Below, piece by piece: positions 15,341 to 58,527 of a stretch of DNA of 64,000 nucleotides (positions are counted from its first letter, which is position 1; every line of letters begins with the position of its first letter). The position numbers and the translations under genes were made by a program. Below the pieces are notes generated by a model. That model was not told the DNA's origin. It was given only the letters and a program-made list of their open reading frames with translations, and searched no databases. The DNA is taken from assembly GCF_006345805.1 (NCBI RefSeq), contig NC_043023.1, forward strand, positions 19,902,001 through 19,966,000. The letters are read 5' to 3'. This stretch comes from Octopus sinensis. Taxonomy: Eukaryota.

Positions 15341-15375
<35 letters not shown>

Positions 15376-15410
15376 CAGTAGATAGGGACAGTGGGAATCT
15401 CGTTGATCCG

Positions 15411-35676: not shown

Positions 35677-35986
35677 TACTTTCACTTTAGTCTTCCTCAA
35701 ATAACTCTGTCGCTATTTACTTTCATTTTATTCGTTGCCCACTGTGTGTGTGCGTTTGCGTGTGGTGTAAACCAGACTAAGAAAAGCATTTGACACACAC
35801 ACCAGAAAGTGAGTTTTCTGTAATTTTGCTTAATTGGAGTTTAATTTTAAAAAACTGGACCTGGCATGACGCGATGCATTGTACTCTCAAAAATGCTAGG
35901 TAAATTGTAATTGAAGAAATCCTATATTGTAGATTTCTATAACTCCCAAAGGGAGGCAGCTAAAATCTGCCTTTTATAATAAGAGA
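35677..35986 (-). mobile_element. Helitron 5' terminal fragment, homologous to 61738-62042
   Basis: Shared sequence and TC start with aggcag..ctgcct subterminal hairpin. Confidence 0.7.
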
Positions 35987-35996
35987 TATATATGTA

Positions 35997-36085
<89 letters not shown>

Positions 36086-36522: not shown

Positions 36523-36652
36523 ATATATATATATGTTTTATTTATATTTCCTGAGCGCCATACTAATACAATTGTTCGTTTGTCTTCCACCTGCCTTCGT
36601 CTTTTGTTTATTTTCATAAAGCTTCCCGTTATATATATATATATATAAAATA

Positions 36653-36816
36653 GGCGTAGGAGTGGCTGTGTGGTAAGTAGCTTGCTAACCAACCACATTG
36701 TTCCGGGTTCAGTCCCACTGTGTGGCATCTTGGGCAAGTGTCTTCTGCTATAGCCCCGGGCCGACCAATGCCTTGTGAGTGGATTTGGTAGACGGAAACT
36801 GAAAGAAGCCGTTGTA

Positions 36817-36865
<49 letters not shown>

Positions 36866-37036
36866 TGTGGTGTGTCTGTGTTTGTCCCCCTAGCATTGAT
36901 TGACAACAGATGCTGGTGTGTTTACGTCCCCGTCACTTAGCGGTTCGGCAAAAGAGACCGATAGAATAAGTACTGGGCTTACAAAGAATAAGTCCCGGGG
37001 TCAATTTGGTCGACTAGAGGCGGTGCTCCAGCATGG
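36653..37036 (+). mobile_element. tRNA-derived SINE (octopus OR-type), one per macrosatellite unit
   Basis: A-box gtggctgtgtggt, B-box-like gggttcagtccc, cttgggcaagt core, internal (TA)n. Confidence 0.8.
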
Positions 37037-37067
<31 letters not shown>

Positions 37068-37071
37068 CAAC

Positions 37072-38226
37072 AGATTTCTAGCAGATCTAGCTACCATGTA
37101 GAGGTCTCTCTCATTGGCTCATACATACATATATACTTAGATAAGAGAGTAGGGTGTGATTTGAGGGAGATATGGCTGCTATTTCTAGCAGGTCTAGCTA
37201 CCATGTAGAGGTCTCCCTCATTGGCTCATGCATACATATATACATAGATAAGAGAGTAGGGTGTGATTTGAGGGAGATTTGGCTGTTATTTCTACCAGGT
37301 CTAGCTACCATGTAGAGGTCTCCCTCATTGGCTCATACATACATATATACATAGATAAGAGAGTAGGGTGTGATATGAGGGGGATTTGGCTGTTATTTCT
37401 ACCAGGTCTATCTACCATGTAGAGGTCTCCCTCATTGGCTCATACATATATACATAGATAAGAGAGTATGGTGTGATTTGGGGGGAGATTTGGCTGCTAT
37501 TTCTAGCAGGTCTAGCTACCATATAGAGGTCTCCCTCATTGGCTCATACATACATATATACATAGATAAGAGAGTAGGGTGTGATTTGAGGGATATTTGG
37601 CTGCTATTTCTAGCAGGTCTAGCTACCATGTAGAGGTCTCCCTCATTGGCTCATACATACATATATACATAGATAAGAGAGTAGGGTGTGATTTGAGGGA
37701 GATTTGGCAGCTGTTTCTAGCAGGTCTAGCTACCATGTAGAGGTCTCCCTCATTGGCTCATACATACATATATACATAGATAAGAGAGTAGGGTGTGATT
37801 TGGGGAGAGTTTTGGCTGCTACTTCTAGCAGGTCTAGCTACCATGTAGAGGTCTCCCTCATTGGCTCATACATACATATATACATAGATAAGAGAGTAGG
37901 GTGTGATTTGGGGAGAGATTTGGCTGCTATTTCTACCAGGTCTAGCTACCATGTAGAGGTATCCCTCATTGGCTCATACATACATATATACATAGATAAG
38001 AGAGTAGGGTGTGATTTGAGGGAGATTTGGCTGCTATTTCTAGCAGGTCTAGCTACCATGTAGAGGTCTCCCTCATTGGCTCATACATACATATATACAT
38101 AGATAAGAGAGTAGGGTGTGATTTGAGGGAGATTTGGCTGCTATTTCTACCAGGTCTAGCTACCATGTAGAGGTCTCACCCATTGGCTCATACATACACA
38201 TATACATAGATAAGAGAGTAGGGTGT
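37072..38226. repeat. 107-bp satellite, ~11 copies (also 41635-41826, 44895-46154, 51020-51857, 55140-56170)
   Basis: Period measured 37571 to 37678. Confidence 0.97.
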
Positions 38227-38299
38227 GGTGGTATTGGTGGTTGTGGTGGTGGTGATGGTGGTGGTTGCATGTGTTGGCATTATAAAATGCTGGAATCAG

Positions 38300-38331
<32 letters not shown>

Positions 38332-38389
38332 TTCGTTTTTGGATTTGGTTTGCAAGATTCTTTATATGAGTTTGTGTGTTGAAGCATAT

Positions 38390-38666
38390 TCTGTTGTGTC
38401 TGGGGAGGGTCATTCTCTTTCAGTGCCTTATTATTTAACACACTCACCGGTAAAATTTCCACTCATTCCCTTATTTTCATTTTCCTAAGATTTCCGTTGC
38501 GTCTTGCAACCTTTTCAATAGTTGTGGATGAGACAGAAAGTTATCAAAAAGGTTGCAAGATGCAATGAAAATTTTAGGAAGATAAACAAGTAAATGAGTG
38601 GAAATTTGACCAGTGAGTGTGTTAAATAATAAGGCGCTAAAACAGAATGACCCTCCCACGACACAA

Positions 38667-38669
<3 letters not shown>
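38390..38669. repeat. ~130-bp-arm inverted repeat, one per unit
   Basis: ctgttgtgtc..gggagggtcattct...gcaaccttttcaata mirrored by tatcaaaaaggttgc...agaatgaccctccc..gacacaacag. Confidence 0.9.
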
Positions 38670-38702
<33 letters not shown>

Positions 38703-38716
38703 CTATATATATATAT

Positions 38717-39560
38717 GCCAGCCTCGTCTGGCACCTGTGTCGGTGGCACATAAAAACACCATCCGAGCGTAGTCGTCTGCTAGCCTTGTCTGGCACCTGT
38801 GTCGGTGGCACATAAAAACACCATCCGAGCGTGGCCGTTCGCCAGCCTCATCTGGCACCTGTGTCGGTGGCACATAAAAAACACCATCCAAGCGTGACCG
38901 TTCGCCAGCCTCGTCTCGCACCTGTGTCGGTGGCACATAAAAAACACCATCCGAGCGTGGCCGTTCGCCAGCCTCATCTGGCACCTGTGTCGGTGGCACA
39001 TAAAAACACCATCCGAGCGTGGCCGTTCGCCAGCCTCATCTGGCACCTGTGTCGGTGGCACATAAAAAACACCATCCGAGCGTGGCCGTTCGCCAGCCTC
39101 GTCTGGCACCTGTGTCGGTGGCACATAAAAAACACCATCCGAGCGTGGCCGTTCGCCAGCCTCATCTGGCACCTGTGTCGGTGGCACATAAAAAACACCA
39201 TCCGAGCGTGGCCGTTCGCCAGCCTCGTCTGGCACCTGTGTCGGTGGCACATAAAAAACACCATCCGAGCGTGGCCGTTCGCCAGCCTCATCTGGCACCT
39301 GTGTCGGTGGCACATAAAAAACACCATCCGAGCGTGGCCGTTCGCCAGCCTCGTCTGGCACCTGTGTCGGTGGCACATAAAATCACCCACAACACTCTCG
39401 GAGTGGTTGGCGTTAGGAAGGGCATCCAGCTGTAGAAACACTGCCAGATCTGACTGGAGCCTGGTGCATCCTTCGGGCTCCCCAGACCCCAGTTGAACCG
39501 TCCAACCCATACTAACATGGAAAGCGGACGTTAAATGATGATGATGATGATGATGATGAT
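38717..39560 (+). repeat. 62/63-bp satellite expanded inside a SINE/RTE-related element, followed by its (GAT)n tail (also 42342, 47341, 52400, 57407)
   Basis: Unit gccagcctcgtctggcacctgtgtcggtggcacataaaaaacaccatccgagcgtggccgttc; homologous to modules in 22040-22321. Confidence 0.95.
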
Positions 39561-39598
39561 CTATACTTTATTTAAAGCAGCAGAAAATTCAACAAAAC

Positions 39599-39636
39599 CT
39601 GTTACTCTGAGTTTCCCGTTCCCGTTCGCCGGACAG
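39599..39636 (-). ncRNA. Degenerate minimal hammerhead, one per unit
   Basis: CUGU-CCGGCGA-ACGggaaCGG-GAAA-CUCAGAG-UA-ACAG: hammerhead topology with a mutated CUGANGA core. Confidence 0.5.
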
Positions 39637-39710
39637 TTTTTGCTATTACTCTACCACTGGTATTTGAGTACTCTTTTTTCCACCTTGCTTCACATTTATA
39701 CGTTTACTCC

Positions 39711-39749
<39 letters not shown>

Positions 39750-40238
39750 GAGGTGGGGCTGACAGAACAGAACACTGCACCACCACCACTACCTCCACCA
39801 CCTCCACCACCGCCACCACCGCCACTACTGTAACCTCATTCTTCTGGTTAGCACCTCCACCACCACCACCACCCAACCATCATTAACACTATCCTTCCCC
39901 CCCTCCCTGCTCATGCCACTACCACACCCACCACCACCACCAACACTACCACCATTACAACCCCCACCACCACCACCATCACCCTGCCATCATTAACACA
40001 ATCATGCCATGCCAATATCACAACTACCACCACCACCACAACATCACACCACACCAATACTAACTCCTACACAACCTGCCTCCCCCCACGCCAGCTTCAT
40101 TCTACTCCTACAACCACCACCACCACCACTGTCACCAGTACCTCCACCGCAGCCACAACCACCACCACCACAGTCACCATTACCTCCACCGCAGCCACCA
40201 CCACCACCCCCACTGTCACCACTACCTCCACCGCAGCT

Positions 40239-40269
<31 letters not shown>

Positions 40270-40607
40270 GCAACAATAACACAAGCACTCCTGGCATTAT
40301 GTTCCTAAACTCCACAGCCAACCTCACCACCACCACCACCACAACATCACACCATCTCTATACTATCTCCTACACTTCCCAACCACACTTCCGAACCATT
40401 CCCCTTTGATTCCTGCCACGGCTATCACCACAAGACCAGATGAACAAAAACGGTGTATTTAGTATTGTATGAACATAGATATATTTATATACATTTACAG
40501 AGTGTACAGGACTTTTAATATACATACATGCATGCATATATACATATTGCATACACACAGACACAGACACACACACACATATACATGCATATATATATAT
40601 ATATATA

Positions 40608-40754
40608 TTCAACAACATTAAGGAACGGCCCTGATAGGTCATTCGACCCACTAGAAAGAGCAGCCAATACTCAAACTGCTAAACAGTAATAATTAAGAAA
40701 TCAAAGGAAATTTAAAAACATGGCCTATCAGGGCCGTTCCTTAATGTTGTTGAA
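40608..40754. repeat. 35-bp-arm inverted repeat, one per unit
   Basis: ttcaacaacattaaggaacggccctgataggtcat / atggcctatcagggccgttccttaatgttgttgaa. Confidence 0.92.
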
Positions 40755-40911
40755 TTGATATATATATATATATATGCATGTATATATGTGTGTTGAATTT
40801 ATATATATAGTCTGTGACTATTTTCTCTTTCTCACTCGACCGCTGGTGGCCCAAAAATTTCTATTGAATTTTTTGCTACCCTTATATGGATTAATATATA
40901 TATATATATAT

Positions 40912-41131
40912 CATCAACATCATCATCATCATCGTTTAACGTCCGTTTTCCGCGCTAGCACGGGTTGGACGGTTTCGACCGGGGTCTGGGGCTCGGGACT
41001 GCCCCAGGCTCCAGTCTAGTCTGGCAGTGTTTCTACAGCTGGATGCCCTTCCTAACACCAACCACTCCGCGAGTGTAGTGGGTGTTTTTTTACGTGCCAC
41101 CTGCACAGGTGCCAGAGGGGTCTGGCATCGG
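40912..41131 (-). mobile_element. SINE/RTE-related 3' fragment present in only one macrosatellite unit
   Basis: Reverse complement of the 31550-31760 type sequence. Confidence 0.8.
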
Positions 41132-41903
41132 CATATATATATATATATAATATATACATGCATACATACACACACACAATATATATATATATATAAGATA
41201 TATATATATATATATATATAAAATAGGCATAGGAGTGGCTGTGTGGTAAGTAGCTTGCTAACACAACCCATAGTTCCGGGTTCAGTCCCACTGCGTGGCA
41301 TCTTGGGCAAGTGTCTTCTGCTATAGCCCCGGGCCGACCAATGCCTTGTGAGTGGATTTGGTAGACGGAAACTGAAAGAAGCCTGTTGTATATATGTATA
41401 TATATATATATATATATGTATGTGTGGGTGTGTTTGTGTGTCTGTGTTGTCCCCTAGCATTGATTGACAACAGATGCTGGTGTGTTTTCGTCCCCGTCAC
41501 TTAGCGGTTCAGCAAAAGAGACCGATAGAATAAGTACTGGGCTCACAAAGAATAAGTCCCTGGGTCAATTTGGTCGACTAGAGGCGGTGCTCCAGCATAG
41601 TATATATATATATATATATATATATACAAACAACAGATTTCTAGCAGATCTAGCTACCATGTAGAGGTCTCTCTCATTGGCTCATACATACATATATACT
41701 TAGATAAGAGAGTAGGGTGTGATTTGAGGGAGATTTGGCTGCTATTTCTAGCAGGTCTAGCTACCATGTAGAGGTCTCCCTCATTGGCTCATGCATACAT
41801 ATATACATAGATAAGAGAGTAGGGTGTGGTGGTATTGGTGGTTGTGGTGGTGGTGATGGTTGTGGTTGCATGTGTTGGCATTATAAAATGCTGGAATCAG
41901 ATA

Positions 41904-41936
<33 letters not shown>

Positions 41937-42308
41937 ACACACACACATATTTCGTTTTTGGATTTGGTTTGCAAGATTCTTTACATGAGTTTGTGTGTTG
42001 AAGCATATTCTGTCGTGTCTGGGGAGGGTCATTCTCTTTCAGTGCCTTATTATTTAACACACTCACCGGTAAAATTTCCACTCATTCCCTTATTTTCATT
42101 TTCCTAACATTTCCGTTGCATCTTGCAACCTTTTCAATAGTTGTGGATAAGACAGAAAGTTATCAAAAAGGTTGCAAGATGCAATGAAAATTTTAGGAAG
42201 ATAAACAAGTAAATGAGTGGAAATTTGACCAGTGAGTGTGTTAAATAATAAGGCACTAAAAGAGAATGACCCTCCCACAACACAACAGTGTGTGTGTGTG
42301 TGTGTGTG

Positions 42309-42344
<36 letters not shown>

Positions 42345-43079
42345 AGCCTCGTCTGGCACCTGTGTCGGTGGCACATAAAACCACCATCCGAGCGTGGCCG
42401 TTCGCCAGCTTCGTCTGGCACCTGCGGTGGCACATAAAACACCATCCGAGCGTGGCCGTTCGCCAACCTCGTCTCGCACCTGTGTCGGTGGCACATAAAA
42501 ACACATCCGAGCGTGGCCGTTCGCCAGCTTCGTCTGGCACCTGTGTCGGTGGCACAGAAAAACACATCCGAGCGTGGCCGTTCGCCAGCCTCGTCTGGCA
42601 CCTGTGTCGGTGGCACATAAAAAACACCATCCAAGCGTGGCCGTTCGAAGCCTCATCTGGCACCTGTGACGGTGGCACATAATAAACACCATCCGAGCGT
42701 GGCCGTTCGCCAGCCTCGTCTGGCACCTGTGTCGGTGGCACATAAAATCACCCACTACACTCTCGGAGTGGTTGGCGTTAGGAAGGGCATCCAGCTGTAG
42801 AAACACTGCCAGATCTGACTGGAGCCTGGTGCATCCTTCGGGCTCCCCAGACCCCAGATGAACCGTCCAACCCATACTAGCATGGTAAGCGGACGTTAAA
42901 TGATGATGATGTTGATGATGATGATCTATACTTTATTTAAAGCAGCAGAAAATTCAACAAAACCTGTTACTCTGAGTTTCCCATTCCCGTTCGCCGGACA
43001 GTTTTTGCTATTACTCTACCACTGGTATTTGAGTACTCTTTTTTCCACCTTGCTTCACATTTATACGTTTACTCCGGTA

Positions 43080-43165
<86 letters not shown>

Positions 43166-44340
43166 TATATATATATGGGAGGTGGGGCTGACAGAACAGA
43201 ACACTGCACCACCACCACACCTCCACCACCGCCACAACTGTAACCTCATCTTCTGGTTAGCACCTCCACCACCACCACCACCCAACCATCATTAACACTA
43301 TCCCCCCCACCTGCTAATGCCACTACCACACCCACCACCACCACCACCACTACCACCATTACACCGCCACCACACCACCACCATCACCCTGCCATCATTA
43401 ACACAATCATGCCATGCCAATATCACAACTACCACCACCACCACAACATCACACCACACCAATACTAACTCCTACACAACCCGCCTCCCCCCACGCCAGC
43501 TTCATTCTACTCCTACAACCACCACAACCACCACCACCACCACCACTGTCACCATTACCCACCACCGCAGCACCACCACCACCCCCACTGTCACCACTAC
43601 CTCCACCGCAGCTACCACCACCACCACCACCGCCAACAACAACAACAACAACAGCAACAATAACACCAGCACTCCTGGCATTATGTTCCTAACCTCCACA
43701 GCCAACCTCACCACCACCACCACCACCACCACCACCCACCCACACATCACACCACCTCTATACTATCTCCTACACTTCCCAACCACACTTCCGAACCATT
43801 CCCCTTTGATTCCTGCCACGGCTATCACCACAAGACCAGATGAACAAAAACGGTGTATTTAGTATTGTATGAACATAGATATATTTATATACATTTACAG
43901 AGTGTACAGGACTTTTAATATACATACATGCATGCATATATACATATTGCATACACACAGACACAGACACACACACACATATACATGCATATATATATAT
44001 ATATATATTCAACAACATTAAGGAACGGCCCTGATAGGTCATTCGACCCACTAGAAAGAGCAGCCAATACTCAAACCGCTAAACAGTAATAATCAAGAAA
44101 TGAAAGGAAAATTTAAAAACATGGCCTATCAGGGCCGTTCCTTAATGTTGTTGAATTGATATAATATATATATATGCATGTATATATGTGTGTTGAATTT
44201 TATATATAGTCTGTGACTATTTTCTCTTTCTCGCTCGACGGCTGGTGGCCCAAAAATTTCTATTGAATTTTTTGCTACCCTTATATGGATTAATATATAT
44301 ATATATATATATATATACATGCATACATACACACACACAC

Positions 44341-44385
<45 letters not shown>

Positions 44386-44650
44386 CATATATATATATAT
44401 ATATATATAGATATATATATATATATATATATATGAGATATATATATATATATATATGAGATATATATATAATATATATAAAATAGGCATAGGAGTGGCT
44501 GTGTGGTAAGTAGCTTGCTAACCAACCACATAGTTCCGGGTTCAGTCCAACTGCGTGGCATCTTGGGCAGGTGTCTTCTGCTATAGCCCCGGGCCGACCA
44601 ATGCCTTGTGAGTGGATTTGGTAGACGGAAACTGAAAGAAGCCTGTTGTA

Positions 44651-44697
<47 letters not shown>

Positions 44698-46641
44698 TTG
44701 TGTGTCTCTGTTTGTCCCCCTAGCATCGATTGACAACAGATGCTGGTGTGTTTTCATCCCCGTCACTTAGCGGTTCGGCAAAAGAGACCGATAGAATAAG
44801 TACTGGGCTTACAAAGAATAAGTCCCGGGGTCAATTTGGTCGACTAGAGGCGGTGCTCCAGCATGGTATATATATATATATATATATATACAACAGATTT
44901 CTAGCAGATCTAGCTACCATGTAGAGGTCTCTCTCATTGGCTCATACATACATATATGGTTAGATAAGAGATTAGGGTGTGATTTGAGGGAGATTTGGCT
45001 GCTATTTCTAGCAGGTCTAGCTACCATGTAGAGGTCTCCCTCATTGGCTCATACATACATATATACATAGATAAGAGAGTAGGGTGTGATATGAGGGGGA
45101 TTTGGCTGTTATTTCTACCAGGTCTATATACCATGTAGAGGTCTCCCTCATTGGCTCATAAGTATACATAGATAAGAGAGTATGGTGTGATTTGGGGGGA
45201 GATTTGGCTGCTATTTCTAGCAGGTCTAGCTACCATGTAGAGGACTCCCTCATTGGCTCATACATATATACATAGATAAGAGAGTATGGTGTGATTTGGG
45301 GGGAGATTTGGCTGCTATTTCTACCAGGTCTAGCTACCATATAGAGGTCTCCCTCATTGGCTCATACGTACACATATACATAGATAAGAGAGTAGTGTGT
45401 GATTTGAGGGAGATTTGGCTGCTATTTCTTGCAGGTCTAGCTACCATGTAGAGGTCTCCCTCATTGGCTCAAACATACATATATACATAGATAAGTGAGT
45501 AGGGTGTGATTTGGGGGGAGATTTGGCTGCTATTTCTAGCAGGTCTAGCTACCATGTAGAGGTCTCCCTCATTGGCTCATACATACATATATACATAGAT
45601 AAGAGAGTAGGGTGTGATTTGGGGGGAGATTTGGCTGCTATTTCTAGCAGGTCTAGCTACCATGTAGAGGTCTCCCTCATTGGCTCATACATACATATAT
45701 ACATAGATAAGAGAGTAGGGTGTGATTTGAGGGAGATTTGGCTGCTATTTCTAGCAGGTCTAGCTACCATGTAGAGGTCTCCCTCATTGGCTCATACATA
45801 CATATATACATAGATAAGAGAGTAGGGTGTGATTTGAGGGAGATTTGGCTGCTATTTCTACCAGGTCTAGCTACCATGTAGAGGTCTCCCTCATTGGATC
45901 ATACATACATAAATACATAGATAAGATAGTATGGTGTGATTTGAGGGAGATTTGGCTGCTATTTCTACCAGGTCTAGCTACCATGTAGAGGTCTCCCTCA
46001 TTGGCTCATACATACATATATACATACATAGATAAGAGAGTAAGGTGTGATTTGAGGGAAATTTGGCTGCTATTTCTACCAGGTCTAGCTACCATGTAGA
46101 GTTCTCCCTCATTGGCTCATACATACATATATACATAGATAAGAGAGTAGGGTGTGGTGGTATTGGTGGTTGTGGTGGGGGTGATGGTGGTGGTTGCATG
46201 TGTTGGCATTATAAAATGCTGGAATCAGATACACACACACACACACACACACACACATTTCGTTTTTGGATTTGGTTTGCAAGATTCTTTATATGAGTTT
46301 ATGTGTTGAAGCATATTCTGTTGTGTCTGGGGAGGGTCATTCTCTTTCAGTGCCTTATTATTTAACACACTCACCGGTAAAATTTCCACTCATTCCCTTA
46401 TTTTCATTTTCCTAAGATTTCCGTTGCGTCTTGCAACCTTTTCAATAGTTGTGGATAAGACAGAAAGTTATCAAAAAGGTTGCAAGATGCAATGAAAATT
46501 TTAGGAAAATAAACAAGTAAATGAGTGGAAATTTGACCAGTGAGTGTGTTAAATAATAAGGCACTAAAAGAGAATGACCCTCCCACAACACAACAGTGTG
46601 TGTGTGTGTATGTGTGTATGTATATATATATATATATATAT

Positions 46642-47327
46642 ATACTAAGCAATAAGGGTTCAGCAACGAATTGCCTTACCACATACCGAATTTAGAAATA
46701 GCAGTCAAAGAGTTATAGCTATTTCTTCTACTAAAAAGGGAGATCTCAGTAAAAACAGCAATTGGAAGGCAGACACAAACAGGTAACAGAAATGAATTGA
46801 CGGCAATCTATCATACTTTTAAGTTATCTACGGATGTACGTTTCGAAATCAAGTTTTTAGGAAAGCATAAGAATTAATATTAAATAATTCTACCTTACCA
46901 AAACTTCTTTTCTCTTCAGCGTAGAATACTATAATCATAAATGATTATATATTGAATTTTGAGATACTAGAAGGCACCAACTCAACTCAGTATCAGAGCG
47001 AGCTAGAATCCGCAACTAGTATCACTAAATTCAAAGTGTGAGTGAAAAGATTGTGTCACCAGCACCCCCTTCCCAACCGCGTGTAGCCAAAACAAGATGC
47101 TGTGGTCATCTACTGAGATAAAATATGGTTATCCGTAATAATGAAGGGTGAAATTAATTAATTTGGAATAATTATCAATTACACCAAGTAGTCTTCGGCA
47201 TGTAAAAGCCTCATTCGAGGAAAATTTAAGTAATACTAAGCAATAAAGGGTTTAGCAACGAATTGCCTTACCACATACCGAATTTAGAAATAGCAGTCAA
47301 AGAGTTATAGCTATTTCTTCTACTAAA
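46642..47327. mobile_element. Non-coding element with ~94-bp terminal direct repeats and an internal hammerhead (second copy 56713-57391)
   Basis: 46642-46735 repeated at 47233-47327; inserted in (TA)n; absent from the equivalent site at ~38710, 42330 and 52380. Confidence 0.8.
46827..46925 (-). ncRNA. Type I hammerhead, copy with stem III mismatch
   Basis: As 56899-56998 but stem III reads ACGUACAU. Confidence 0.65.
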
Positions 47328-50300
47328 TATATATATATATGCCAGCCTCGTCTGGCACCTGTGTCGGTGGCACATAAAAACACCATCCGAGCGTGGTCGT
47401 CTGCTAGCCTTTTCTGGCACCTGTGTCGGTGGCACATAAAAACACCATCCGAGCGTGGCCGTTCGCCAGCTTCGTCTGGCACCTGTGTCGGTGGCACATA
47501 AAAACCATCCGAGCGTGGACGTTCGCCAACCTCGTCTGGACCTGTGTCGGTGGCACATAAAAAACACCATCCAAGCGTGGCCGTTCGCCAGCCTCGTCTG
47601 GCACCTGTGTCGGTGGCACATATAAAACACCATCCGAGCGTGGCCGTTCGCCAGCCTCGTCTGGCACCTGTGTCGGTGGCACATAAAAAACACCATCCGA
47701 GCGTGGCCGTTCGCCAGCCTCATCTGGCACCTGTGTCGGTGGCACATAAAAAACACCATCCGAGCGTGGCCGTTCTACAGCCTCGTCTGGCACCTGTGTC
47801 GGTGGCACATAAAAACACCATCCGAGCGTGGCCGTTCGCCAGCCTCGTCTGGCACCTGTGTCGGTGGCACATAAAAAAAACACCATCCGAGCGTGGCCGT
47901 TCGCCAGCCTCGTCTGGCACCTGTGTCGGTGGCACATAAAAACACCATCCGAGCGTGGCCGTTCGCCAGCCACCATCTGGCACCTGTGTCGGTGGCACAT
48001 AAAACACACCATCCGAGCGTGGCCGTTCGCCAGCCTCGTCTGGCACCTGTGTCGGTGGCACATAAAAACCAATCCGAGCGTGGCCGTTCGCCAGCCTCAT
48101 CTGGCACCTGTGTCGGTGGCACATAAAAACACCATCCGAGCATGGCCGTTCGCCAGCCTCATCTGGCACCTGTGTCGGTGGCACATAAAAAACACCATCC
48201 GAGCGTGGCCGTTCGCCAGCCTCATCTGGCACCTGTGTCGGTGGCACATAAAACACACCATCCGAGCGTGGCCGTTCGCCAGCCTCGTCTGGCACCTGTG
48301 TCGGTGGCACATAAAAACACCATCCGAGCGTGGCCGTTCGCCAGCCTCGTCTGGCACCTGTGTCGGTGGCACATAAAAAACACCATCCGAGCGTGGCCGT
48401 TCGCCAGCCTCGTCTGGCACCTGTGTCGGTGGCACATAAAAAACACCATCCGAGCGTGGCCGTTCGCCAGCCTCGTCTGGCACCTGTGTCGGTGGCACAT
48501 AAAAAACACCATCCGAGCGTGGCCGTTCGCCAGCCTCGTCTGGCACCTGTGTCGGTGGCACATAAAATCACCCGCTACACTCTCGGAGTGGTTGGTGTTA
48601 GGAAGGGCATCCAGCTGTAGAAACACTGCCAGATCTGACTGGAGCCTGGTGCATCCTTCGGGCTCCCCAGACCCCAGTTGAACCGTCCAACCCATACTAG
48701 CATGGAAAGCGGACGTTAAATGATGATGATGATGATGATGATGATCTATACTTTATTTAAAGCAGCAGAAAATTCAACAAAACCTGTTACTCTGAGTTTC
48801 CCGTTCCCGTTCGCCGGACAGTTTTTGCTTTTACTCTACCACTGGTATTTGAGTACACTTTTTTCCACCTTGCTTCACATTTATACGTTTACTCCGGTAT
48901 ATATATATATATATATATAATATATATGGGAGGTGGGGCTGACAGAACAGAACACTGCACAACCACCACCACCTCCACCACCGCCACTACTGTAACCTCA
49001 TTCTTCTGGTTAGCACCTCCACCACCACCACCACCCAACCATCATTAACACTATTCTCCCCCCCCTCCCTGCTCATGCCACTACCACACCCACCACCACC
49101 ACCACCACCACCACCACCACCACTACAACCATTACAACCCCCACCACCACCACCATCCCCCTGCCATCATTAACACAATCATGCCATGCCAATATCACAA
49201 CTACCACCACCACCACAACATCACACCACACCAATACTGACTCCTACACAACCCGCCTCCCCCCATGCCAGCTTCATTCTACTCCTACAACCACCACCAC
49301 CACCACCACCACCACCACAGTCACCAGTACCCCCACCGCAGCCACCACCACCACCCCCACTGTCACCAGTACCTCCACCGCAGCCACAACCACCACCACC
49401 ACTGTCACCAGTACCTCCACCGCAGCCACAACCACCACCACCACTGTCACCACTACCTCCACCGCAGCTACCACCACCACCCCCACTGTCACCAGTACCT
49501 CCACCGCAGCCACAACCACCACCACCACTGTCACCAGTACCTCCACCGCAGCCACAACCACCACCACCACTGTCACCACTACCTCCACCGCAGCTACCAC
49601 CACCACCCCCACTGTCACCAGTACCTCCACCGCAGCCACCACCACCACCCCCACTGTCACCAGTACCTCCACCGCAGCCACAACCACCACCACCACTGTC
49701 ACCAGTACCTCCACCGCAGCCACAACCACCACCACCACTGTCACCACTACCTCCACCGCAGCCACAACCACCACCACCACCATCAACTACAACAACAACA
49801 ACAACAGCAACAATAACACAAGCACTCCTGGCATTATGTTCATAACCTCCACAGCCAACCTCACCACCACCACCACCACCACCACCACCACAACATCACA
49901 CCACCTCTATACTATCTCCTACACTTCCCAACCACACTTCCGAACCATTCCCCTTTGATTCCTGCCACGGCTATCACCACAAGACCAGATGAACAAAAAC
50001 GGTGTATTTAGTATTGTATGAACATAGATATATTTATATACATTTACAGAGTGTACAGGACTTTTAATATACATACATGCATGCATATATACATATTGCA
50101 TACACACAGACACAGACACACACACACACATATACATGCATATATATATATATATATTCAACAACATTAAGGAACGGCCCTGATAGGTCATTCGACCCAC
50201 TAGAAAGAGCAGCCAATACTCAAACCGCTAAACAGTAATAATTAAGAAATCAAAGGAAAATTTAAAAACATGGCCTATCAGGGCCGTTCCTTAATGTTGT

Positions 50301-50489
50301 TGAATTGATATATATATATATATATGCATGTATATATGTGTGTTGAATTTATATATATAGTCTGTGACTATTTTCTCTTTCTCACTCGACCGCTGGTGGC
50401 CCGAAAATTTCTATTGAATTTTTTGCTACCCTTATATGGATTAATATATATATATATATTATATATATAATATATATACATGCATACAT

Positions 50490-50532
<43 letters not shown>

Positions 50533-50555
50533 ATATATAAATATATATATATGAG

Positions 50556-50587
<32 letters not shown>

Positions 50588-50985
50588 TATATATATATAT
50601 ATATATAAATAGGCACAGGAGTGGCTCTGTGGTAAGTAGCTTGCTAACCAACCACATAGTTCCGGGTTCAGTCCCACTGCGTGGCATCTTGGGCAAGTGT
50701 CTTCTGCTATAGCCCCGGGCTGACCAATGCCTTGTGAGTGGATTTGGTAGACGGAAACTGAAAGAAGCCTGTTGTATATATGTATATATATATATATATA
50801 TATATCTATGTGTGTGTGTTTGTGTGTCTCTGTTTGTCCCCTAGCATTGATTGACAACAGATGCTGGTGTGTTTCATCCCCGTCACTTAGCGGTTCGGCA
50901 AAAGAGACCGATAGAATAAGTACTGGGCTTACAAAGAATAAGTCCCTGGGTCAATTGGTCGACTAGAGGCGGTGCTCCAGCATGG

Positions 50986-51016
<31 letters not shown>

Positions 51017-51929
51017 CAACAGATTTCTAGCAGATCTAGCTACCGTGTAGAGGTCTCTCTCATTGGCTCATACATACATATATACTTAGATAAGAGAGTA
51101 GGGTGTGATTTGAGGGAGATTCGGCTGCTATTTCTAGCAGGTCTAGCTACCATGTAGAGGTCTCCCTCATTGGCTCATGCATACATATATACATAGATAA
51201 GAGAGTAGGGTGTGATTTGGGGGGAGATTTGGCTGCTATTTCTAGCAGGTCTAGCTACCATATAGAGGTCTCCCTCATTGGCTCATACATACACATATAC
51301 ATAGATAAGAGAGTAGGGTGTGATTTGGGGGGAGATTTAGCTGCTATTTCTAGCAGGTCTAGCTACCATGTAGAGGTCTCCCTCATTGGCTCATACATAC
51401 ATATATACATAGATAAGAGAGTAGGGTGTGATTTAAGGGAGATTTGGCTGCTACTTTCTAGCAGGTCTAGCTACTATGTAGAGGTCTCCCCCATTGACTC
51501 ATACATACATATATACATAGATAAGAGAGTAGGGTGTGATTTGAGGGAAATTTGGCTGCTATTTCTACCAGGTCTAGCTACTATGTAGAGGTCTCCCTCA
51601 TTGGCTCATACATACATATATACATAGATAAGAGAGTAGGGTGTGATTTGAGGGAGATTTGGCTGCTATTTCTACCAGGTCTAGCTACCATGTAGAGGTC
51701 TCCCTCATTGGCTCATACATACATAAATACATAGATAAGAGAGTAGGTGTGATTTGAGGGAAATTTGGCTGCTATTTCTACCAGGTCTAGCTACCATGTA
51801 GAGGTCTCCCTCATTGGCTCATACATACATATATACATAGATAAGAGAGTAGGGTGTGGTGGTATTGGTGGTTGTGGTGGTGGTGATGGTGGTGGTTGCA
51901 TGTGTTGGCATTATAAAATGCTGGAATCA

Positions 51930-52002
<73 letters not shown>

Positions 52003-52359
52003 TTCGTTTTTGGATTTGGGTGCAAGATTCTTTATATGAGTTTGTGTGTTGAAGCATATTCTGTTGTGTCTGGGGAGGGTCATTCTCTTTCAGTGCCTTA
52101 TTATTTAACACACTCACCGGTAAAATTTCCACTCATTCCCTTATTTTCATTTTCCTAAGATTTCCGTTGCGTCTTGCAACTTTTTCAATAGTTGTGGATA
52201 AGACAGAAAGTTATCAAAAAGGTTGCAAGATGCAATGAAAATTTTAGGAAAATAAACAAGAAAATGAGTGGAAATTTGACCAGTGAGTGTGTTAATAATA
52301 AGGCACTAAAAGAGAATGACCCTCCCACACACAACAGTGTGTGTGTGTGTGTGTGTATG

Positions 52360-52391
<32 letters not shown>

Positions 52392-53459
52392 GCCAGCCTG
52401 CAGCCTCGTCTGGCACCTGTGTCGGTGGCACATAAAAAACACCATCCGAGCGTGGTCGTCTGCTAGCCTTTTCTGGCACCTGTCGGTGGCACATAAAAAC
52501 ACCATCCGAGCGTGGCCGTTCGCCAGCTTCGTCTGGCACTGTGTCGGGTGCACATAAAAACACCATCCGAGCGTGGCCGTTCGCCAGCCTCGTCTGGCAC
52601 CGTGTCGGTGGCACATAAAAACACCATCCGAGCGTGGCCGTTCGCCAGCCTCGTCTGGCACCTGTGTCGGTGGCACATAAAAACACCATCCGAGCGTGGC
52701 CGTTCGCCAGCCTCGTCTGGCACCTGTGTCGGTGGCACATAAAAACACCATCCGAGCGTGGCCGTTCGCCAGCCTCATCTGGCACCTGTGTCGGTGGCAC
52801 ATGAAAAACACCATCCGAGCGTGGCCGTTCGCCAGCCTCGTCTGGCACCTGTGTCGGTGGCACATAAAAACACCATCCGAGCGTGGCCGTTCGCCAGCCT
52901 CGTCTGGCACCTGTGTCGGTGGCACATAAAAAACACCATCCGAGCGTGGCCGTTCGCCAGCCTCGTCTGGCACCTGTGTCGGTGACACATAAAAAACACC
53001 ATCCGAGCGTGGCCGTTCGCCAGCCTCATCTGGCACCTGTGTCGGCGGCACATAAAAAACACCATCTGAGCGTGGCCGTTCGCCAGCCTCGTCTGGCACC
53101 TGTGTCGGTGGCACATAAAATCACCCACTACACTCTCGGAGTGGTTGGCGTTAGGAAGGGCATCCAGCTGTAGAAACACTGCCAGATCTGACTGGAGCCT
53201 GGTGCATCCTTCGGGCTCCCCAGACCCCAGTTGAACCGTCCAACCAATACTAGCATGGAAAGCGGACGTTAAATGATATTGATGATGATGATGATGATGT
53301 AAACTTTATTTAAAGCAGCAGAAAATTCAACAAAACCTGTTACTCTGAGTTTCCCGTTCCCGTTCGCCGGACAGTTTTTGCTTTTACTCTACCACTGGTA
53401 TTTGAGTACTCTTTTTTCCACCTTGCTTCACATTTATATGTTTACTCCGGTATATATAT

Positions 53460-53504
<45 letters not shown>

Positions 53505-53958
53505 GGGAGGTGGGGCTGACAGAACAGAACACTGCACCACCACCACCACCTCCACCACCGCCACCACCGCCCTACTGTAACCTCATTCTTCTGGTTAGCA
53601 CCTCCACCACCACCACCACCCAACCATCATTAACACTATCCTTCCTTCCCCCCCCTCCCTGCTCATGCCACTACACAACCCACCACCACCACCACTACCA
53701 CCATTACAACCCCCACCACCACCACCACCACACTACCACCATACAACCGCCACCACCACCACCATCACCCTGCCATCATTAACACAATCATGCCATGCCA
53801 ATATCACAACTACCACCACCACCACAACATCACACCACACCAATACTAACTCCTACACAACCCGCCTCCCCCCACGCCAGCTTCATTCCACTCCTACAAC
53901 CACCACCACCACCACCACCACCACCACTGTCACCAGTACCTCCACCGCAGCTACCACC

Positions 53959-53989
<31 letters not shown>

Positions 53990-54623
53990 GCAACAATAAC
54001 AAAAGGACTCCTGGCATTATGTTCATAACCTCCACAGCCAACCTCACCACCACCACCACCACCACCACCACCACAACATCACACCCACCTCTATACTATC
54101 TCCTACACTTCCCAACCACACTTCCGAACCATTCCCCTTTGATTCCTGCCACGGCTATCACCACAAGACCAGATGACAAAAACGGTGTATTTAGTATTGT
54201 ATGAACATAGATATATTTATATACATTTACAGAGTGTACAGGACTTTTAATATACATACATGCAATGCATATATACATATTGCATACACACAGACACACC
54301 ACCACACACACATACATGCATATATATATATATATATATTCAACAGCATTAAGGAAGGCCCTGATAGGTCATTCAACCCACTAGAAAGAGCAGCCAATAC
54401 TCAAACCGCTAAACAGTAATAATTAAGAAATCAAAGGAAATTTAAAAACATGGCCTATCAGGGCCGTTCCTTATGTTGTTGAATTAATATATATATATAT
54501 ATATGCATGTATATATGTGTGTTGAATTTATATATATAGTCTGTGACTATTTTCTCTTTCTCACTCGATCGCTGGTGGCCCAAAAATTTCTATTGAATTT
54601 TTTGCTACCCTTATATGGATTAA

Positions 54624-54674
<51 letters not shown>

Positions 54675-56297
54675 GCATACATACACACACACATATATAT
54701 ATATATGAGATATATATATATATATAATAAAACAGGCACAGGAGTGGCTGTGTGTAAGTAGCTTGCTAACAACCACATAGTTCCGGGTTCAGTCCCACTG
54801 CGTGCATGTTGGGCGAGTGTCTTCTGCTATAGCCCCAGGCTGACCAATGCCTTGTGAGTGGATTTGGTAGACGGAAACTGAAAGAAGCCTGTTGTTATAT
54901 GTTATATATATATATCTATATATATATATGTATGTGAGTGTGTTTGTGTGTCTGTGTTTGTCCCCCTAGCATTGATTGACAACAGATGCTGGTGTGGTTT
55001 TCGTCGCCGTCACTTAGCGGTTCGGCAAAAGAGACCGATAGAATAGTACTTGGGCTTACAAAGAATAAGTCCCGGGGTCAATTTGGTCGACTAAAGGCGG
55101 TGCTCCAGCATGGTATATATATATATATATTATATACAACAGATTTCTAGCAGATCTAGCTACCATGTAGAGGTCTCTCTCATTGGCTCATACATACATA
55201 TATACTTAGATAAGAGAGTAGGGTGTGATTTGAGGAGATTTTGGCTGTTATTTCTAGCAGGTCTAGCTACCATGTAGAGGTCTCCCTCATTGGCTCATAC
55301 ATACATATATATAGATAAGAGAGTAGGGTGTGATATGAGGGGGATTTGGCTGTTATTTCTACCAGGTCTATCTACCATGTAGAGGTCTCCCTCATTGGCT
55401 CATACATACATATATACATAGATAAGAGAGTAGGGTGTGATTTGGGGGGAGATTTGGCTGCTATTTCTAGCAGGTCTAGCTACCATGTAGAGGTCTCCTT
55501 CATTGGCTCATACGTAAATACATAGATAAGAGAGTAGGGTGTGATTTGAGGGAGATTTGGCTGCTAATTCTAGCAGGTCTAGCTACCATGTAGAGGTCTC
55601 CCTCATTGGCTCATACATACATATATACATAGATAAGAGAGTAGGGTGTGATTTGGGGGGAGATTTGGCTGCTATTTCTAGCAGGTCTAGCTACCATGTA
55701 GAGGTCTCCCTCATTGGCTCATACATACATATATACATAGATAAGAGAGTAGGGTGTGATTTGGGGGGAGATTTGGCTGCTATTTGTAGCAGGTCTAGCT
55801 ACCAATGTAGAGGTCCCCTCATTGGCTCATACATACTATATACATAGATAAGAAGTAGGGTGTGATTTGGGGGGAGATTTGGCTGCTATTTGTAGCAGGT
55901 CTAGCTACCATGTAGAGGTCTCCCTCATTGGCTCATACATACATATTACATAGATAAGAGAGTAGGGTGTGATTTGGGGGGAGATTTGTGCTGCTATTTG
56001 TAGCAGGTCTAGCTACCATGTAGAGGTCTCCCTTGGCTCATACATACATATATACATAGATAAGAGAGTAGGGTGTTGATTTGAGGGAAATTTGGCTGCT
56101 ATTTCTACCAGGTCTAGCTACCATGTATAGGTCTCCCTCATTGGCTCATACATACATATATACATACATAGGAGAGAAGTGTTGTGTGGTATTGGTGTTT
56201 TGTGGTGGTGGTGATGGTGGTGGTATTGGTGTTTGTGGTGTGGTGATGGTGGTGGTTGCATGTGTTGGCATTATAAAATGCTGGAATCAGATACACA

Positions 56298-56328
<31 letters not shown>

Positions 56329-56898
56329 ACACATATTTCGTTTTGGATTTGGTTTGCAAGATTCTTTATATGAGTTTGTGTGTTGAAGCATATTCTGTTG
56401 TGTCTGGGAGGGTCATTCTCTTTCAGTGCCTTATTATTTAACACACTCACCGGTAAAATTCCACTCATTCCCTATTTCATTTTCCTAAGATTTCCGTTGC
56501 GTCTTGCAACCTTTTCAATAGTTTGTGAATAAGACAGAAAGTTATCAAAAAGTTGCAAGATGCAATGAAAATTTTAGGAAAATAAACAAGTAAATGAGTG
56601 GAATTTGACCAGTGAGTGTGTTAAATAATAAGGCACTAAAAGAGAATGACCCTCCCAACCACAACAGTGTGTGTGTGTGTATGTGTGTATGTATATATAT
56701 AATATATATATATTCTAAGCAATAAAGGGTTAGCACAGCATTGCCTTACCACATACCGAATTTAGAAATAGCAGTCAAAGAGTTATAGCTATTTCTTCTA
56801 CTAAAAAGGGAGATCTCAGTAAAAACAGCAATTGGAAGGCAGACACAAACAGGTAAGAGAGAATGAATTGACGCAATCTATCATACAATTTTAAGTTA

Positions 56899-56998
56899 TC
56901 TACGGACGTACGTTTCGAAATCAAGTTTTTAGGAATGCATAAGAATTTAATATTAAATAATTCTACCTTAACAAAACTTCTTTTCTCTTCAGCGTAGA
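56899..56998 (-). ncRNA. Type I hammerhead ribozyme, apparently intact
   Basis: Stem I UCUACG/CGUAGA, CUGAAGA, stem II GAAA/UUUC extended, GAAA, palindromic stem III ACGUACGU, GUC site. Confidence 0.8.
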
Positions 56999-58527
56999 AT
57001 ACTATAATCATAAATGATTATTATTGAATTTTGAGATACTAGAAGGCACCAACTCAACTCAGTATCAGAGCGAGCCAGAATCCGCAACTAGTATCACTAA
57101 ATTCAAAGTGTGAAATGAAAGATTGTGTCACCAGCCCCTTCCCACCCGCGTGTAAACCAAAAAAGATGCTGTGGTCATCTACTGAGAAAATATGGTTATC
57201 CGTAATAATGAAGGGTGAAATTAATTAATTTGAATAATTATCAATTACACCAAGTAGTCTTCGGCATGTAAAAGCCTCATTCGAGGAAAATTTAAGTAAT
57301 ACTAAGCAATAAAGGGCTTAGCAACGAATTGCCTTACACATACCAAATTTAGAAATAGCAGTCAAAGAGTTATAGCTATTTTCTTTCTAAATAATATAAT
57401 ATATATGCCAGCCTCGTCTGGCACCTGTGTCGGTGGCACATAAAAACACCATCCGAGCGTGGCCGTTCGCCAGCTTCGTCTGACACCTGTGTCGGTGGCA
57501 CATAAAAACACCATCCGAGCGTGGCCGTCGCCAAGCCTCGTCTGGCACCTGTGTCAGTGGCACATAAAAAACCACCATCCAAGCGTGGCCGTTCGCCAGC
57601 CTCATCTGGCACCTGTGTCGGTGGCACATAAAAAACACCATCCGAGCGTGGCCGTTCGCCAGCCTCGTCTGGCACCTGTGTCGTGGCATATAAAAAACAC
57701 CATCCGAGCGTGGCCGTTCGCCAGCCTCATCTGGCACCTATGTCGGTGGCACATAAAAACACCATCCGAGCGTGGCCATTCGCCAGCCTCGTCTGGCACC
57801 TGTGTCGTGGCACATAAAAAACACCATCCGAGTGTGGCCGTTCGCCAGCCTCGTCTGGCACCTGTGGGTCGGTTGCACATAAAAAACACATCCAAGCGTG
57901 ACCGTTCGCCAGCCTCGTCTCGCACCTGTGTCGGTGGCACATAAAAAACACCATCCGAGCGTGGCCATTCGCCAGCCTCGTCTGGCACCTGTGTCGGTGG
58001 ACATAAAAAACACCATCCAAGCGTGACCGTTCGCCAGCCTCGTCTGGCACCTGTGGGTCGGTGGCACATAAAAACACCATCCGAGCGTGGCCGTTCGCCA
58101 GCCTCATCTGGCACCTGTGCGGTGGCACATAAAAAACACCATCCGAGCGTGGCCGTTCGCCAGCCTCGTCTGGCACCTGTGTCGTGGCACATAAAATCAC
58201 CCACTACACTCTCGGAGTGGTTGGCGTTAGGAAGGGCATGCTGTAGAAACACTGCCAGATCTGACTGGAGCCTGGTGCATCCTTCGGGCTCCCAGACCCC
58301 AGTTGAACCGTCCAACCCATACTAGCATGGAAAGCGACGTTAAATGATGATGATGATGATGATGATGATGTTATACTTTATTTAAAGCAGCAGAAAATTC
58401 AACAAAACCTGTTACTCTGAGTTTCCCGTTCCCGTTCGCCGGACAGTTTTTGCTATTACTCTACCACTGGTATTTGAGTACTCTTTTTTCCACCTTGCTT
58501 CACATTTATATGTTTACTTCCGGTATA

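What the first reader, a model, noticed from the sequence alone, without database searches (positions are those of the whole stretch)
37072..38226. 107-bp satellite whose minus strand has most of an HDV-like ribozyme fold
Seen per unit: GAGGGAG(A) ACC-UCUACAU-GGU AGCUAGAC CUGCUA-GAAA-UAGCAG CCAA A UCUCCCUC. This maps to P2, P3 with 7-nt L3, P4, a C-N-A-A junction and P2'. Caveats: P1 is short and imperfect (GAGCCA vs UAGCU), and the conserved L3 G is A (consistent with CpG decay). About 40 copies occur in five arrays. Inference: tandem relic of a self-cleaving motif; active relatives would release ~107-nt monomers, like hammerhead retrozymes but with a delta-type core.
Basis: partly seen in the sequence, partly recalled or inferred. 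Interest (0 to 1): 0.7.

Follow-up and report, generated by a model that had tools for sequence, protein, structure and literature searches.

The report
Satellite from a dead ribozyme-headed retroposon
This 107-base repeat is a tandem copy of the front end of an old, very abundant jumping element whose ancestor likely carried a self-cutting (HDV-type) RNA motif; the repeat has lost key parts of that motif and likely spread as ordinary DNA, not through self-cutting RNA circles.

Summary
The array is real: 43 units in five arrays, which share both junctions and so come from one founder. P2, P3, P4 and a C-A-A-A junction are present and are not chance (0 of 20,000 shuffles). The unit is the first ~90 nt of a dispersed ~250-nt retroposon (26 hits in 400 random kb, roughly 180,000 fragments) plus a TA/TG spacer. 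The reconstructed ancestral head has the L3 G, a P1 with 6 of 7 pairs starting at the element's 5' edge, and a single P1.1 pair, as in the trypanosome L1Tc ribozyme; its P3 is one pair short, and no covariation or partner LINE was found. The satellite has lost the L3 G (0 of 41 in the window; 16 of 1,027 tandem-type hits genome-wide) and P1; 7 of 35 units keep all four helices. A young Helitron-type element carries a more broken variant (838 hits), and the retroposon's tail half also forms arrays. RNA reads show no start or end pile. Verdict: a relic, not a delta-type retrozyme. The scan had not noted this sequence before. Cleavage is untested.

The parts
37074..38227 (-). 107-bp tandem array, 11 units (last one cut inside P4); unit = retroposon head plus TA/TG spacer
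41637..41828 (-). second array, 2 units, same two junctions
44897..46156 (-). third array, 12 units, same junctions
51023..51858 (-). fourth array, 8 units, same junctions
55143..56182 (-). fifth array, 10 units, same junctions
38077..38083 (-). representative unit: remnant of P1 5' strand; 38083 corresponds to the ancestral first nucleotide (predicted cut just 5' of it); only 3 contiguous pairs remain
   Evidence: inferred from parent family
38068..38074 (-). P2 5' strand (7 nt), pairs with 38018-38024
38055..38067 (-). P3 (3 bp) and L3 (38058-38064); 38059 is A where HDV-like ribozymes and the parent family have G; 38067 is an extra base absent from the parent
38049..38055 (-). P1' region; two ancestral CpG cytosines are A in the satellite, which breaks P1
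38031..38046 (-). P4 hairpin, 6 bp with GAAA loop; intact in 19 of 35 complete units
38025..38030 (-). J4/2; 38029 is the predicted catalytic C position
   Evidence: descriptor from PMC6326823
38018..38024 (-). P2 3' strand; P2 intact in 17 of 35 complete units
37977..38017 (-). about 22 nt of retroposon body followed by a TA/TG microsatellite spacer
36630..58200 (.). higher-order block duplication (arrays start 3.3-6.1 kb apart) holding the 107-bp arrays together with 63-bp and 42-bp arrays and short repeats
35717..36037 (-). 5' end of the Helitron-type element that elsewhere carries these units (96% to L259); not the direct container of the window arrays

Best explanation
The 107-bp unit is the 5' head of an old dispersed retroposon joined to a TA/TG spacer; that head was likely an HDV-type self-cleaving ribozyme in the ancestor, while the satellite copy is predicted to be inactive and likely grew and spread as DNA. 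Step 1 (shown): the unit is homologous to the first ~90 nt of a ~250-nt, AAC-tailed family of roughly 180,000 fragments. Step 2 (inferred): the family was a non-autonomous LINE-type retroposon like NARTc, RIME or SIDE, whose ribozyme cut its 5' end out of host transcripts before a partner LINE copied it. Step 3 (shown as sequence, order inferred): one decayed head, already lacking the L3 G and P1, was duplicated in tandem. Step 4 (carrier shown, mechanism inferred): units spread inside a ~2-kb non-autonomous Helitron and by block duplication and unequal exchange, as in this window.
For: Parent family: dispersed copies on most chromosomes with a shared body and tail; 26 hits in 40 random 10-kb stretches; mean 70% identity to the majority in 22 random-locus copies; 91 of 204 hits have head and tail. 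Ancestral fold: CpG-restored head from 41 selected and 97 head-unanchored copies matches the descriptor (P2 7 bp, P3 2 bp, L3 with U..CG, P4 6 bp, P1 5 contiguous pairs plus one more after a C-C mismatch); 0 of 30,000 shuffles match, and with no loop sequence required 6 of 10,000 match the core and 0 of 10,000 core plus P1. Conservation falls to background 1 nt upstream of the predicted first nucleotide. A C-G first pair and a single-pair P1.1 occur in the active L1Tc ribozyme (PMC3185411, passages; PMC4035085, passages). Satellite inactive: L3 G in 0 of 41 aligned segments and 16 of 1,027 tandem-type hits; the same G-to-A change abolished cleavage in a Nasonia R2 ribozyme (PMC3774820, section 12 read). 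P1 duplex -3.0 against -7.3 kcal/mol for the ancestor. All four helices intact in 7 of 35 units; 19 variant alleles at 36 paired sites against 20 at 41 spacer sites. DNA-level spread: 26 of 30 loci lie in one element with a TC 5' end; 17 of them show the 3' hairpin and CTAG followed by T within the fetched range; its unit variant with broken P3, L3 U and P4 has 838 exact hits. The tail half, which has no ribozyme part, also forms arrays (L082, L084-L086, L099).
Against: No cleavage assay. The ancestral head is one nucleotide short at the P2/P3 junction (P3 of 2 bp, or 3 bp at the cost of a weaker P2 register) and has a C-C mismatch in P1, a kind of defect linked to weak cleavage in PMC3774820. 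No covariation in any helix among 41 dispersed copies, and P1 scores below its shuffles (expected for CpG-rich copies decaying from one master, but it gives no support). The minimum-energy fold of the reconstruction prefers a competing hairpin over P3 (-19.8 against -17.6 kcal/mol without the P1 pseudoknot). P1 of 5 or more pairs arises in 830 of 20,000 shuffles of the first 10 nt (4%). No single dispersed copy passes the strict core (0 of 134). Two earlier majority reconstructions failed the descriptor because of one noisy column each, so the result depends on how the consensus is built. No partner LINE in 80 LINE loci. Target-site duplications unresolved. No Rfam ribozyme hit. PMC3774820 notes that the G-to-A change does not fully abolish cleavage in HDV itself.
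Confidence: 0.7

Rival explanations
1. Same origin and DNA-level spread, but the parent head was never a ribozyme: it is a structured 5' domain (a closing stem with two hairpins) that resembles the HDV fold by chance or is only a remote remnant.
For: The minimum-energy fold is a two-hairpin junction; P3 has 2 bp; no covariation; no Rfam hit; no LINE with this head found; the descriptor was written after seeing the sequence.
Against: Loop consensus, junction C-N-A-A, four helices in the right order and P1 starting at the element's edge coincide; 0 of 30,000 and 0 of 10,000 shuffles reproduce this. No tRNA gene found and no pol III boxes seen by eye.
Confidence: 0.24
2. Delta-type retrozyme: tandem transcripts self-cleave into 107-nt monomers or circles that are reverse-transcribed and reinserted. 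P1 could form between the palindromic AGCU of neighbouring units (4 bp), and rare G-bearing units or A-to-I editing could restore the loop.
For: The satellite gained a third P3 pair and a two-pair P1.1 on paper (34 of 35 units); a 4-bp P1 works in one Nasonia R2 ribozyme (PMC3774820, section 16); 16 tandem-type hits carry the G; RNA reads span unit junctions; earlier AI notes report hammerhead retrozyme arrays in this genome (unchecked).
Against: 98% of tandem-type hits lack the G, also in contigs of three other organism labels (under the 3% listing threshold; 0.1% in X15). Helices are broken without compensation. 0 of 18 distinct array starts and 2 of 17 ends lie within 3 nt of the predicted cut, about what chance gives (hand count). 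No start or end pile in three RNA runs; reads lie on both strands. The most widely spread variant is the most broken. Junction-spanning reads are expected from tandem DNA too.
Confidence: 0.04

Closest known systems
L1Tc/NARTc and ingi/RIME/SIDER Pr77 ribozyme of trypanosomatids (PMC3185411, PMC4035085; passages read)
   Same: HDV-like fold in the first ~70 nt of a short non-coding retroposon; cut at C1 of the element; single-pair P1.1; heads can be duplicated (SIDER2 has two).
   Different: Their ribozymes were shown to cleave and their partner LINEs are known; P3 has 3 bp. Here only a reconstruction fits, P3 has 2 bp, no partner was found, and the tail is AAC-rich. No sequence comparison with Pr77 was run.
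R2 ribozymes and R2 SIDEs; bipartite non-autonomous LINEs of the RTE, Ingi, Vingi and R2 clades (PMC3774820 sections 12 and 16; PMC5786205 passages)
   Same: 5' HDV-like head on a non-LTR retroposon; P1 of 6-7 bp with mismatches at the top tolerated; dead copies lose the L3 G.
   Different: Not tied to rDNA; derivation from the two ends of one LINE is not shown.
Metazoan non-LTR retrozymes (PMC7229834, PMC7761336; passages read)
   Same: Tandem repeats of a small unit holding a ribozyme-like motif in an animal genome.
   Different: Those carry active type I hammerheads in 150-450-bp units and yield abundant linear and circular monomers. Here the motif is HDV-like, lacks a conserved catalytic-site base and P1, and shows no sign of RNA-level processing.
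Satellite-like repeats carried by non-autonomous Helitron-superfamily elements, e.g. Cg_HINE of the oyster (PMC7492417 passages); SINE-derived satellites (PMC9659126 passages)
   Same: Short internal tandem arrays dispersed by a rolling-circle element; satellite unit derived from part of a retroposon.
   Different: The carrier here has canonical Helitron ends (5' TC, 3' hairpin and CTAG, A|T target; features recalled), not the subterminal repeats of a HINE, and the window's arrays are not inside it.

Membership tests
HDV-like ribozyme (satellite unit) | P1 of 6-7 bp (4 bp in one known exception) | tested here: not met
   3 contiguous pairs; duplex -3.0 kcal/mol
HDV-like ribozyme (satellite unit) | L3 with conserved U..C-G (U-G reverse wobble) | tested here: not met
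   G in 0 of 41 segments and 16 of 1,027 tandem-type hits
HDV-like ribozyme (satellite unit) | P2, 3-bp P3, P4 in order, junction C-N-A-A | tested here: met
   majority unit, 0 of 20,000 shuffles; but all four helices intact in only 7 of 35 units
HDV-like ribozyme (satellite unit) | P1.1 of 1-2 bp | tested here: inconclusive
   two pairs possible in 34 of 35 units, only in a register that leaves a 4-nt P1'
HDV-like ribozyme (ancestral head) | L3 with U..C-G and junction C-N-A-A | tested here: met
   CpG signature in 97 copies; descriptor match
HDV-like ribozyme (ancestral head) | P1 of 6-7 bp starting at the element's 5' end | tested here: met
   6 of 7 pairs, C-G first pair, one C-C mismatch; conservation ends 1 nt upstream; rests on 41 selected copies
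HDV-like ribozyme (ancestral head) | 3-bp P3 together with a P2 of 5 bp or more | tested here: inconclusive
   one G serves either P2 (7 bp, P3 2 bp) or P3 (G-U, weaker P2)
HDV-like ribozyme (ancestral head) | P1.1 of 1-2 bp | tested here: met
   one U-A pair, 28 of 41 copies paired; a single pair is enough in L1Tc (PMC3185411)
HDV-like ribozyme (ancestral head) | compensatory changes in helices | tested here: inconclusive
   none above shuffles; copies of one master are not expected to covary
HDV-like ribozyme (either form) | Mg2+-dependent self-cleavage needing the junction C | not testable with these tools
   needs a bench assay
non-LTR retrozyme | intact ribozyme in each tandem unit | tested here: not met
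non-LTR retrozyme | monomer-length linear and circular RNAs | tested here: inconclusive
   no start or end pile in three ordinary RNA-seq runs of a related label; such libraries capture small circles poorly
bipartite non-autonomous LINE (NARTc/RIME/SIDE kind) | head and tail shared with an autonomous LINE | tested here: inconclusive
   no match in 50 RT loci and 30 DUF6451 loci; a small sample of about 60,000 RT candidates
bipartite non-autonomous LINE (NARTc/RIME/SIDE kind) | short, dispersed, microsatellite tail, target-site duplication | tested here: inconclusive
   length, dispersal and AAC tail met; duplications score 8 or more in 14 of 72 copies against 58 of 992 controls, but with scattered ends
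tRNA-derived SINE | tRNA-like head with A and B boxes | tested here: not met
   no ARAGORN gene in the window or three loci, no Rfam tRNA hit, no boxes by eye; weak test on decayed copies
non-autonomous Helitron (carrier) | 5' TC, 3' hairpin plus CTAG, insertion between A and T (features recalled) | tested here: met
   5' end in 26 of 30 loci; 3' end in the 17 where it fell within the fetched range, T following in all 17

The most novel reading that the evidence does not exclude
The satellite is a working delta-type retrozyme: neighbouring units supply each other's P1 through the palindromic AGCU, the gained P3 and P1.1 pairs complete the core, and rare G-bearing (or edited) units release 107-nt monomers or circles, the first HDV-core counterpart of hammerhead retrozymes. 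A milder novel reading, about 0.6 likely and worth about 0.5, is that the parent is an undescribed ~180,000-copy animal retroposon with an L1Tc-type ribozyme head in place of a tRNA head.
Probability: 0.04. Interest if true: 0.85.

Novelty: new member of a known kind. Interest (0 to 1): 0.36.

Why it matters
The array itself is an ordinary retroposon-derived satellite and a warning: a ribozyme-like fold in every unit of a tandem repeat need not mean a retrozyme. The useful result is the parent. If its reconstructed head cleaves, this genome holds roughly 180,000 relics of an HDV-like ribozyme of the L1Tc type, with a C-G first pair, a single P1.1 pair and a 2-bp P3. That would widen the accepted fold and show a very successful animal retroposon that used a ribozyme rather than a tRNA promoter to define its 5' end. 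One 66-nt transcription assay would settle it. I found no paper on it, but Repbase and Dfam could not be searched, so the repeat family may already have a name.

Tried and rejected
Rfam scans of the window and eight parent-family loci: no ribozyme or tRNA family. Hammerhead or twister reading of the head: core motifs not seen on either strand (by eye, motifs recalled). Partner LINE: 30 top RVT_1 loci, 20 extended chromosomal RT loci and 30 DUF6451 loci share neither head nor tail; sequences flanking 24 head-only and 24 tail-only hits share only other common repeats. Target-site duplications: first script had an indexing error; the corrected run was inconclusive. Two majority reconstructions failed the descriptor through one noisy column each before the one reported. 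Covariation: none. Sequencing-run search: no RNA holder listed on record; no evidence either way. A-to-I editing as the source of T>C at 38067 or 38059: not adopted; 38067 is the dominant letter in a contig set of the same organism label (25,034 of 28,606 depth, X10) and appears in both mate directions, and reads with the L3 G have at least two other differences; no DNA run of that organism was laid, so editing is not excluded. One search's count (85) looks low beside one search's for an overlapping motif, so it was not used for copy number. Ruminski 2011 (PMC3308841) and Webb and Luptak 2011 (PMC3256349) were not held; no supplements were opened, and those of PMC4035085 and PMC13282606 may bear on the fold comparison and on whether the family is named.

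Full report
Setting. The window lies at G000:C27:19902001-19966000 in a 2.72-Gb animal genome. It holds expanded eukaryotic rDNA at 2.9-15.5 kb. I read the genome as an octopus from its size, my recall of its common repeats and earlier notes of the scan; no call named the species.

Observation. The array at 37074-38227 has period 107, 10.8 copies and 94% matches. BLAST finds 43 units in five arrays (11, 2, 12, 8, 10). All five share both junctions and sit in a block duplication with 63-bp and 42-bp arrays, so they are one founding event. On the minus strand the majority unit folds into P2 (7 bp), P3 (3 bp, 7-nt loop) and P4 (6 bp, GAAA loop) with a C-C-A-A-A-U junction. A relaxed HDV core descriptor matches it, 0 of 20,000 shuffles, and nothing in 400 kb of random genome. 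I wrote that descriptor after seeing the sequence, using features from PMC6326823 (passages). With the L3 G required, the unit does not match. Rfam gives no ribozyme hit.

Where the unit comes from. A motif search returned single copies on many chromosomes. They continue into a shared body and end in an AAC-rich tail, about 250 nt in all. A profile finds 26 hits in 40 random 10-kb stretches, 19 of them reaching the tail; scaled up, roughly 180,000 fragments (rough: small, clustered sample). Random-locus copies average 70% identity to the majority (22 copies). The satellite unit matches the first ~90 positions of this family and adds a TA/TG spacer. No tRNA-like head was found. Target-site duplications were not resolved, and no partner LINE was found in 80 loci.

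The ancestral head. Among 134 copies with the P4 anchor, 97 were not selected on the head, and 41 were chosen for agreement in the 5' and loop columns. Five dinucleotides show CG/TG/CA patterns, including the L3 position (CG 9, TG 23, CA 16, TA 11 of 97) and the first nucleotide (CG 3, TG 12, CA 5, TA 2 of 41). The restored head gives P2 7 bp, P3 2 bp, an L3 with U..C-G, a 7-nt P1' that pairs with the first seven nucleotides (C-G first pair, five contiguous pairs, one C-C mismatch, one A-U), a single U-A P1.1 pair, P4 6 bp and a C-A-A-A-U junction. No shuffle matches (0 of 30,000; with no loop sequence required, core 6 of 10,000 and core plus P1 0 of 10,000). Conservation drops to background one base upstream of the predicted first nucleotide, and loose ends of 85 and 178 contigs in two other runs show the same head, without the satellite's extra base, running into unrelated AT-rich flanks. 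The active L1Tc ribozyme is cut at C1 and has a single P1.1 pair (PMC3185411, passages; PMC4035085, passages). R2 ribozymes tolerate mismatches at the top of P1 (PMC3774820, section 16). Against this: P3 is one pair short; a competing hairpin is 2.2 kcal/mol better than the nested part without P1; P1 alone arises in 4% of shuffles of the first 10 nt; there is no covariation and P1 scores below its shuffles; 0 of 134 single copies pass the strict core; and two earlier reconstructions failed on one noisy column each. I put a ribozyme ancestry at about 0.7.

The satellite is predicted to be inactive. The L3 G is present in 0 of 41 aligned segments (two segments held two units each, of which the second was not aligned). 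Genome-wide, a 25-nt motif has G in 17 hits (16 tandem-type, one dispersed copy) and A in 1,011. This change abolished cleavage in a Nasonia R2 ribozyme, though not fully in HDV (PMC3774820, section 12). Two C-to-A changes cut P1 to three contiguous pairs (-3.0 against -7.3 kcal/mol). Of 35 complete units (five truncated end units and one misaligned unit left out), P2 is intact in 17, P4 in 19, P3 in 31 and all four helices in 7; paired sites carry 19 variant alleles at 36 sites, spacer sites 20 at 41. On the other side, the satellite gained a base that completes P3 and a two-pair P1.1 on paper, which keeps a neighbour-assisted 4-bp P1 conceivable.

How it spread. Of 30 loci from a third motif search (the first 30 exact hits, all on C1, of 2,082 hits at up to one mismatch), 26 are copies of one ~1.8-2.5-kb element at about 95% identity holding 1-5 units. 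It begins with TC and, in the 17 where the end was in range, ends in a hairpin and CTAG followed by T: Helitron ends (features recalled). Its main unit variant has an A-C mismatch in P3, C for the first L3 U and a broken P4, and has 838 exact hits. Rolling-circle elements carrying satellite-like arrays are described in the oyster (PMC7492417, passages). The window's arrays are not inside this carrier, and their units are closer to the parent, so the carrier probably captured units later (inference). The tail half of the retroposon forms its own arrays (L082, L084-L086, L099), and a shorter head fragment does too (L073), so tandem growth does not need the fold. Prompted by earlier notes on hammerhead arrays with fixed end registers, I listed array ends in 22 loci: 0 of 18 distinct starts and 2 of 17 distinct ends lie within 3 nt of the predicted cut, both of those in the TA-rich spacer (hand count, same-flank duplicates merged, BLAST ends approximate). 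Five arrays run on into an old retroposon body (by eye).

RNA. One monomer was laid on three raw RNA-seq runs of a related organism label (about 6% of each run): 869, 796 and 626 reads of 12.9, 12.0 and 11.5 million, first mates on both strands, mostly 90-99% alike, 51-59% running on into unlike sequence, and no place where many molecules begin or end. Reads span unit junctions, which tandem DNA and circles would both give. These libraries are a weak test for small circles.

What is known. It works like a decayed NARTc/RIME/SIDE-type head (PMC3185411, PMC4035085, PMC5786205 passages) turned into a satellite. It fails membership of HDV-like ribozymes as a satellite unit, and of non-LTR retrozymes (PMC7229834, PMC7761336 passages). 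Searches for HDV-like ribozyme with octopus, and for HDV, ribozyme, tandem, satellite and cephalopod together, found 0 papers; related searches (listings) and passages of PMC13282606 and PMC4758252 showed no description. Repeat databases were not available. The scan's own index had no look-alike.

Verdict. Observation confirmed; interpretation partly supported. New member of a known kind; interest 0.36, carried by the parent retroposon rather than the array.

Noticed in passing
window 13869-15450 and 15451 to about 17000, minus strand: A 28S copy resumes at 15450, at what I recall as the R2 target site, with non-rRNA sequence upstream that includes a 131-bp tandem (16293-16639) and poly(T) runs; no ORF of 100 aa or more up to 19300 and no 5' junction found. 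Possibly an R2-site insertion remnant.
   Followed up: partly
window 2160-2869, minus strand: A second 28S copy is cut at about 2860, some 13 nt before that site, by a reverse-transcriptase fragment (RVT_1, E 1.6e-11).
   Followed up: partly
L246-L275 (G000:C1); window 35717-36037 and 61778-62042: Young ~2-kb non-autonomous Helitron-type element, about 95% identical across loci, often inserted in (TA)n, carrying 1-5 of the 107-bp units and a long internal palindrome.
   Followed up: yes
window 38717-39382, 42342-42752, 47341-48567, 52401-53125, 57407-58196 and 32475-33765, 49300-49780: 63-bp and 42-bp arrays in the same block duplication; the 63-bp unit resembles another common short repeat seen in L259.
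   Followed up: no
L082, L084-L086, L099; G000:C27:473594-473763: Tandem arrays made from the tail half of the same retroposon (periods about 71 to 140 bp).
   Followed up: partly
L003, L004, L057, L282, L286: Arrays of the young unit run straight into old, mutually divergent retroposon bodies, as if satellite units had been placed into old copies by homology. Unexplained.
   Followed up: no
L277:1500-1560 (G000:C16:56153332): A dispersed copy that keeps all three CpGs from L3 to P1' and has an A before the P3 cytosines; its P4 and P2 are decayed.
   Followed up: partly
L146-L175: The best RVT_1 hits are many near-identical intact LINE frames on unplaced contigs, apart from the chromosomal families; they may be very young elements or foreign DNA.
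   Followed up: no
window 38067: In organism B the extra P3 base is mostly G instead of A (88% of depth in X10, about half of the RNA reads), which turns an A-U pair into G-U.
   Followed up: partly
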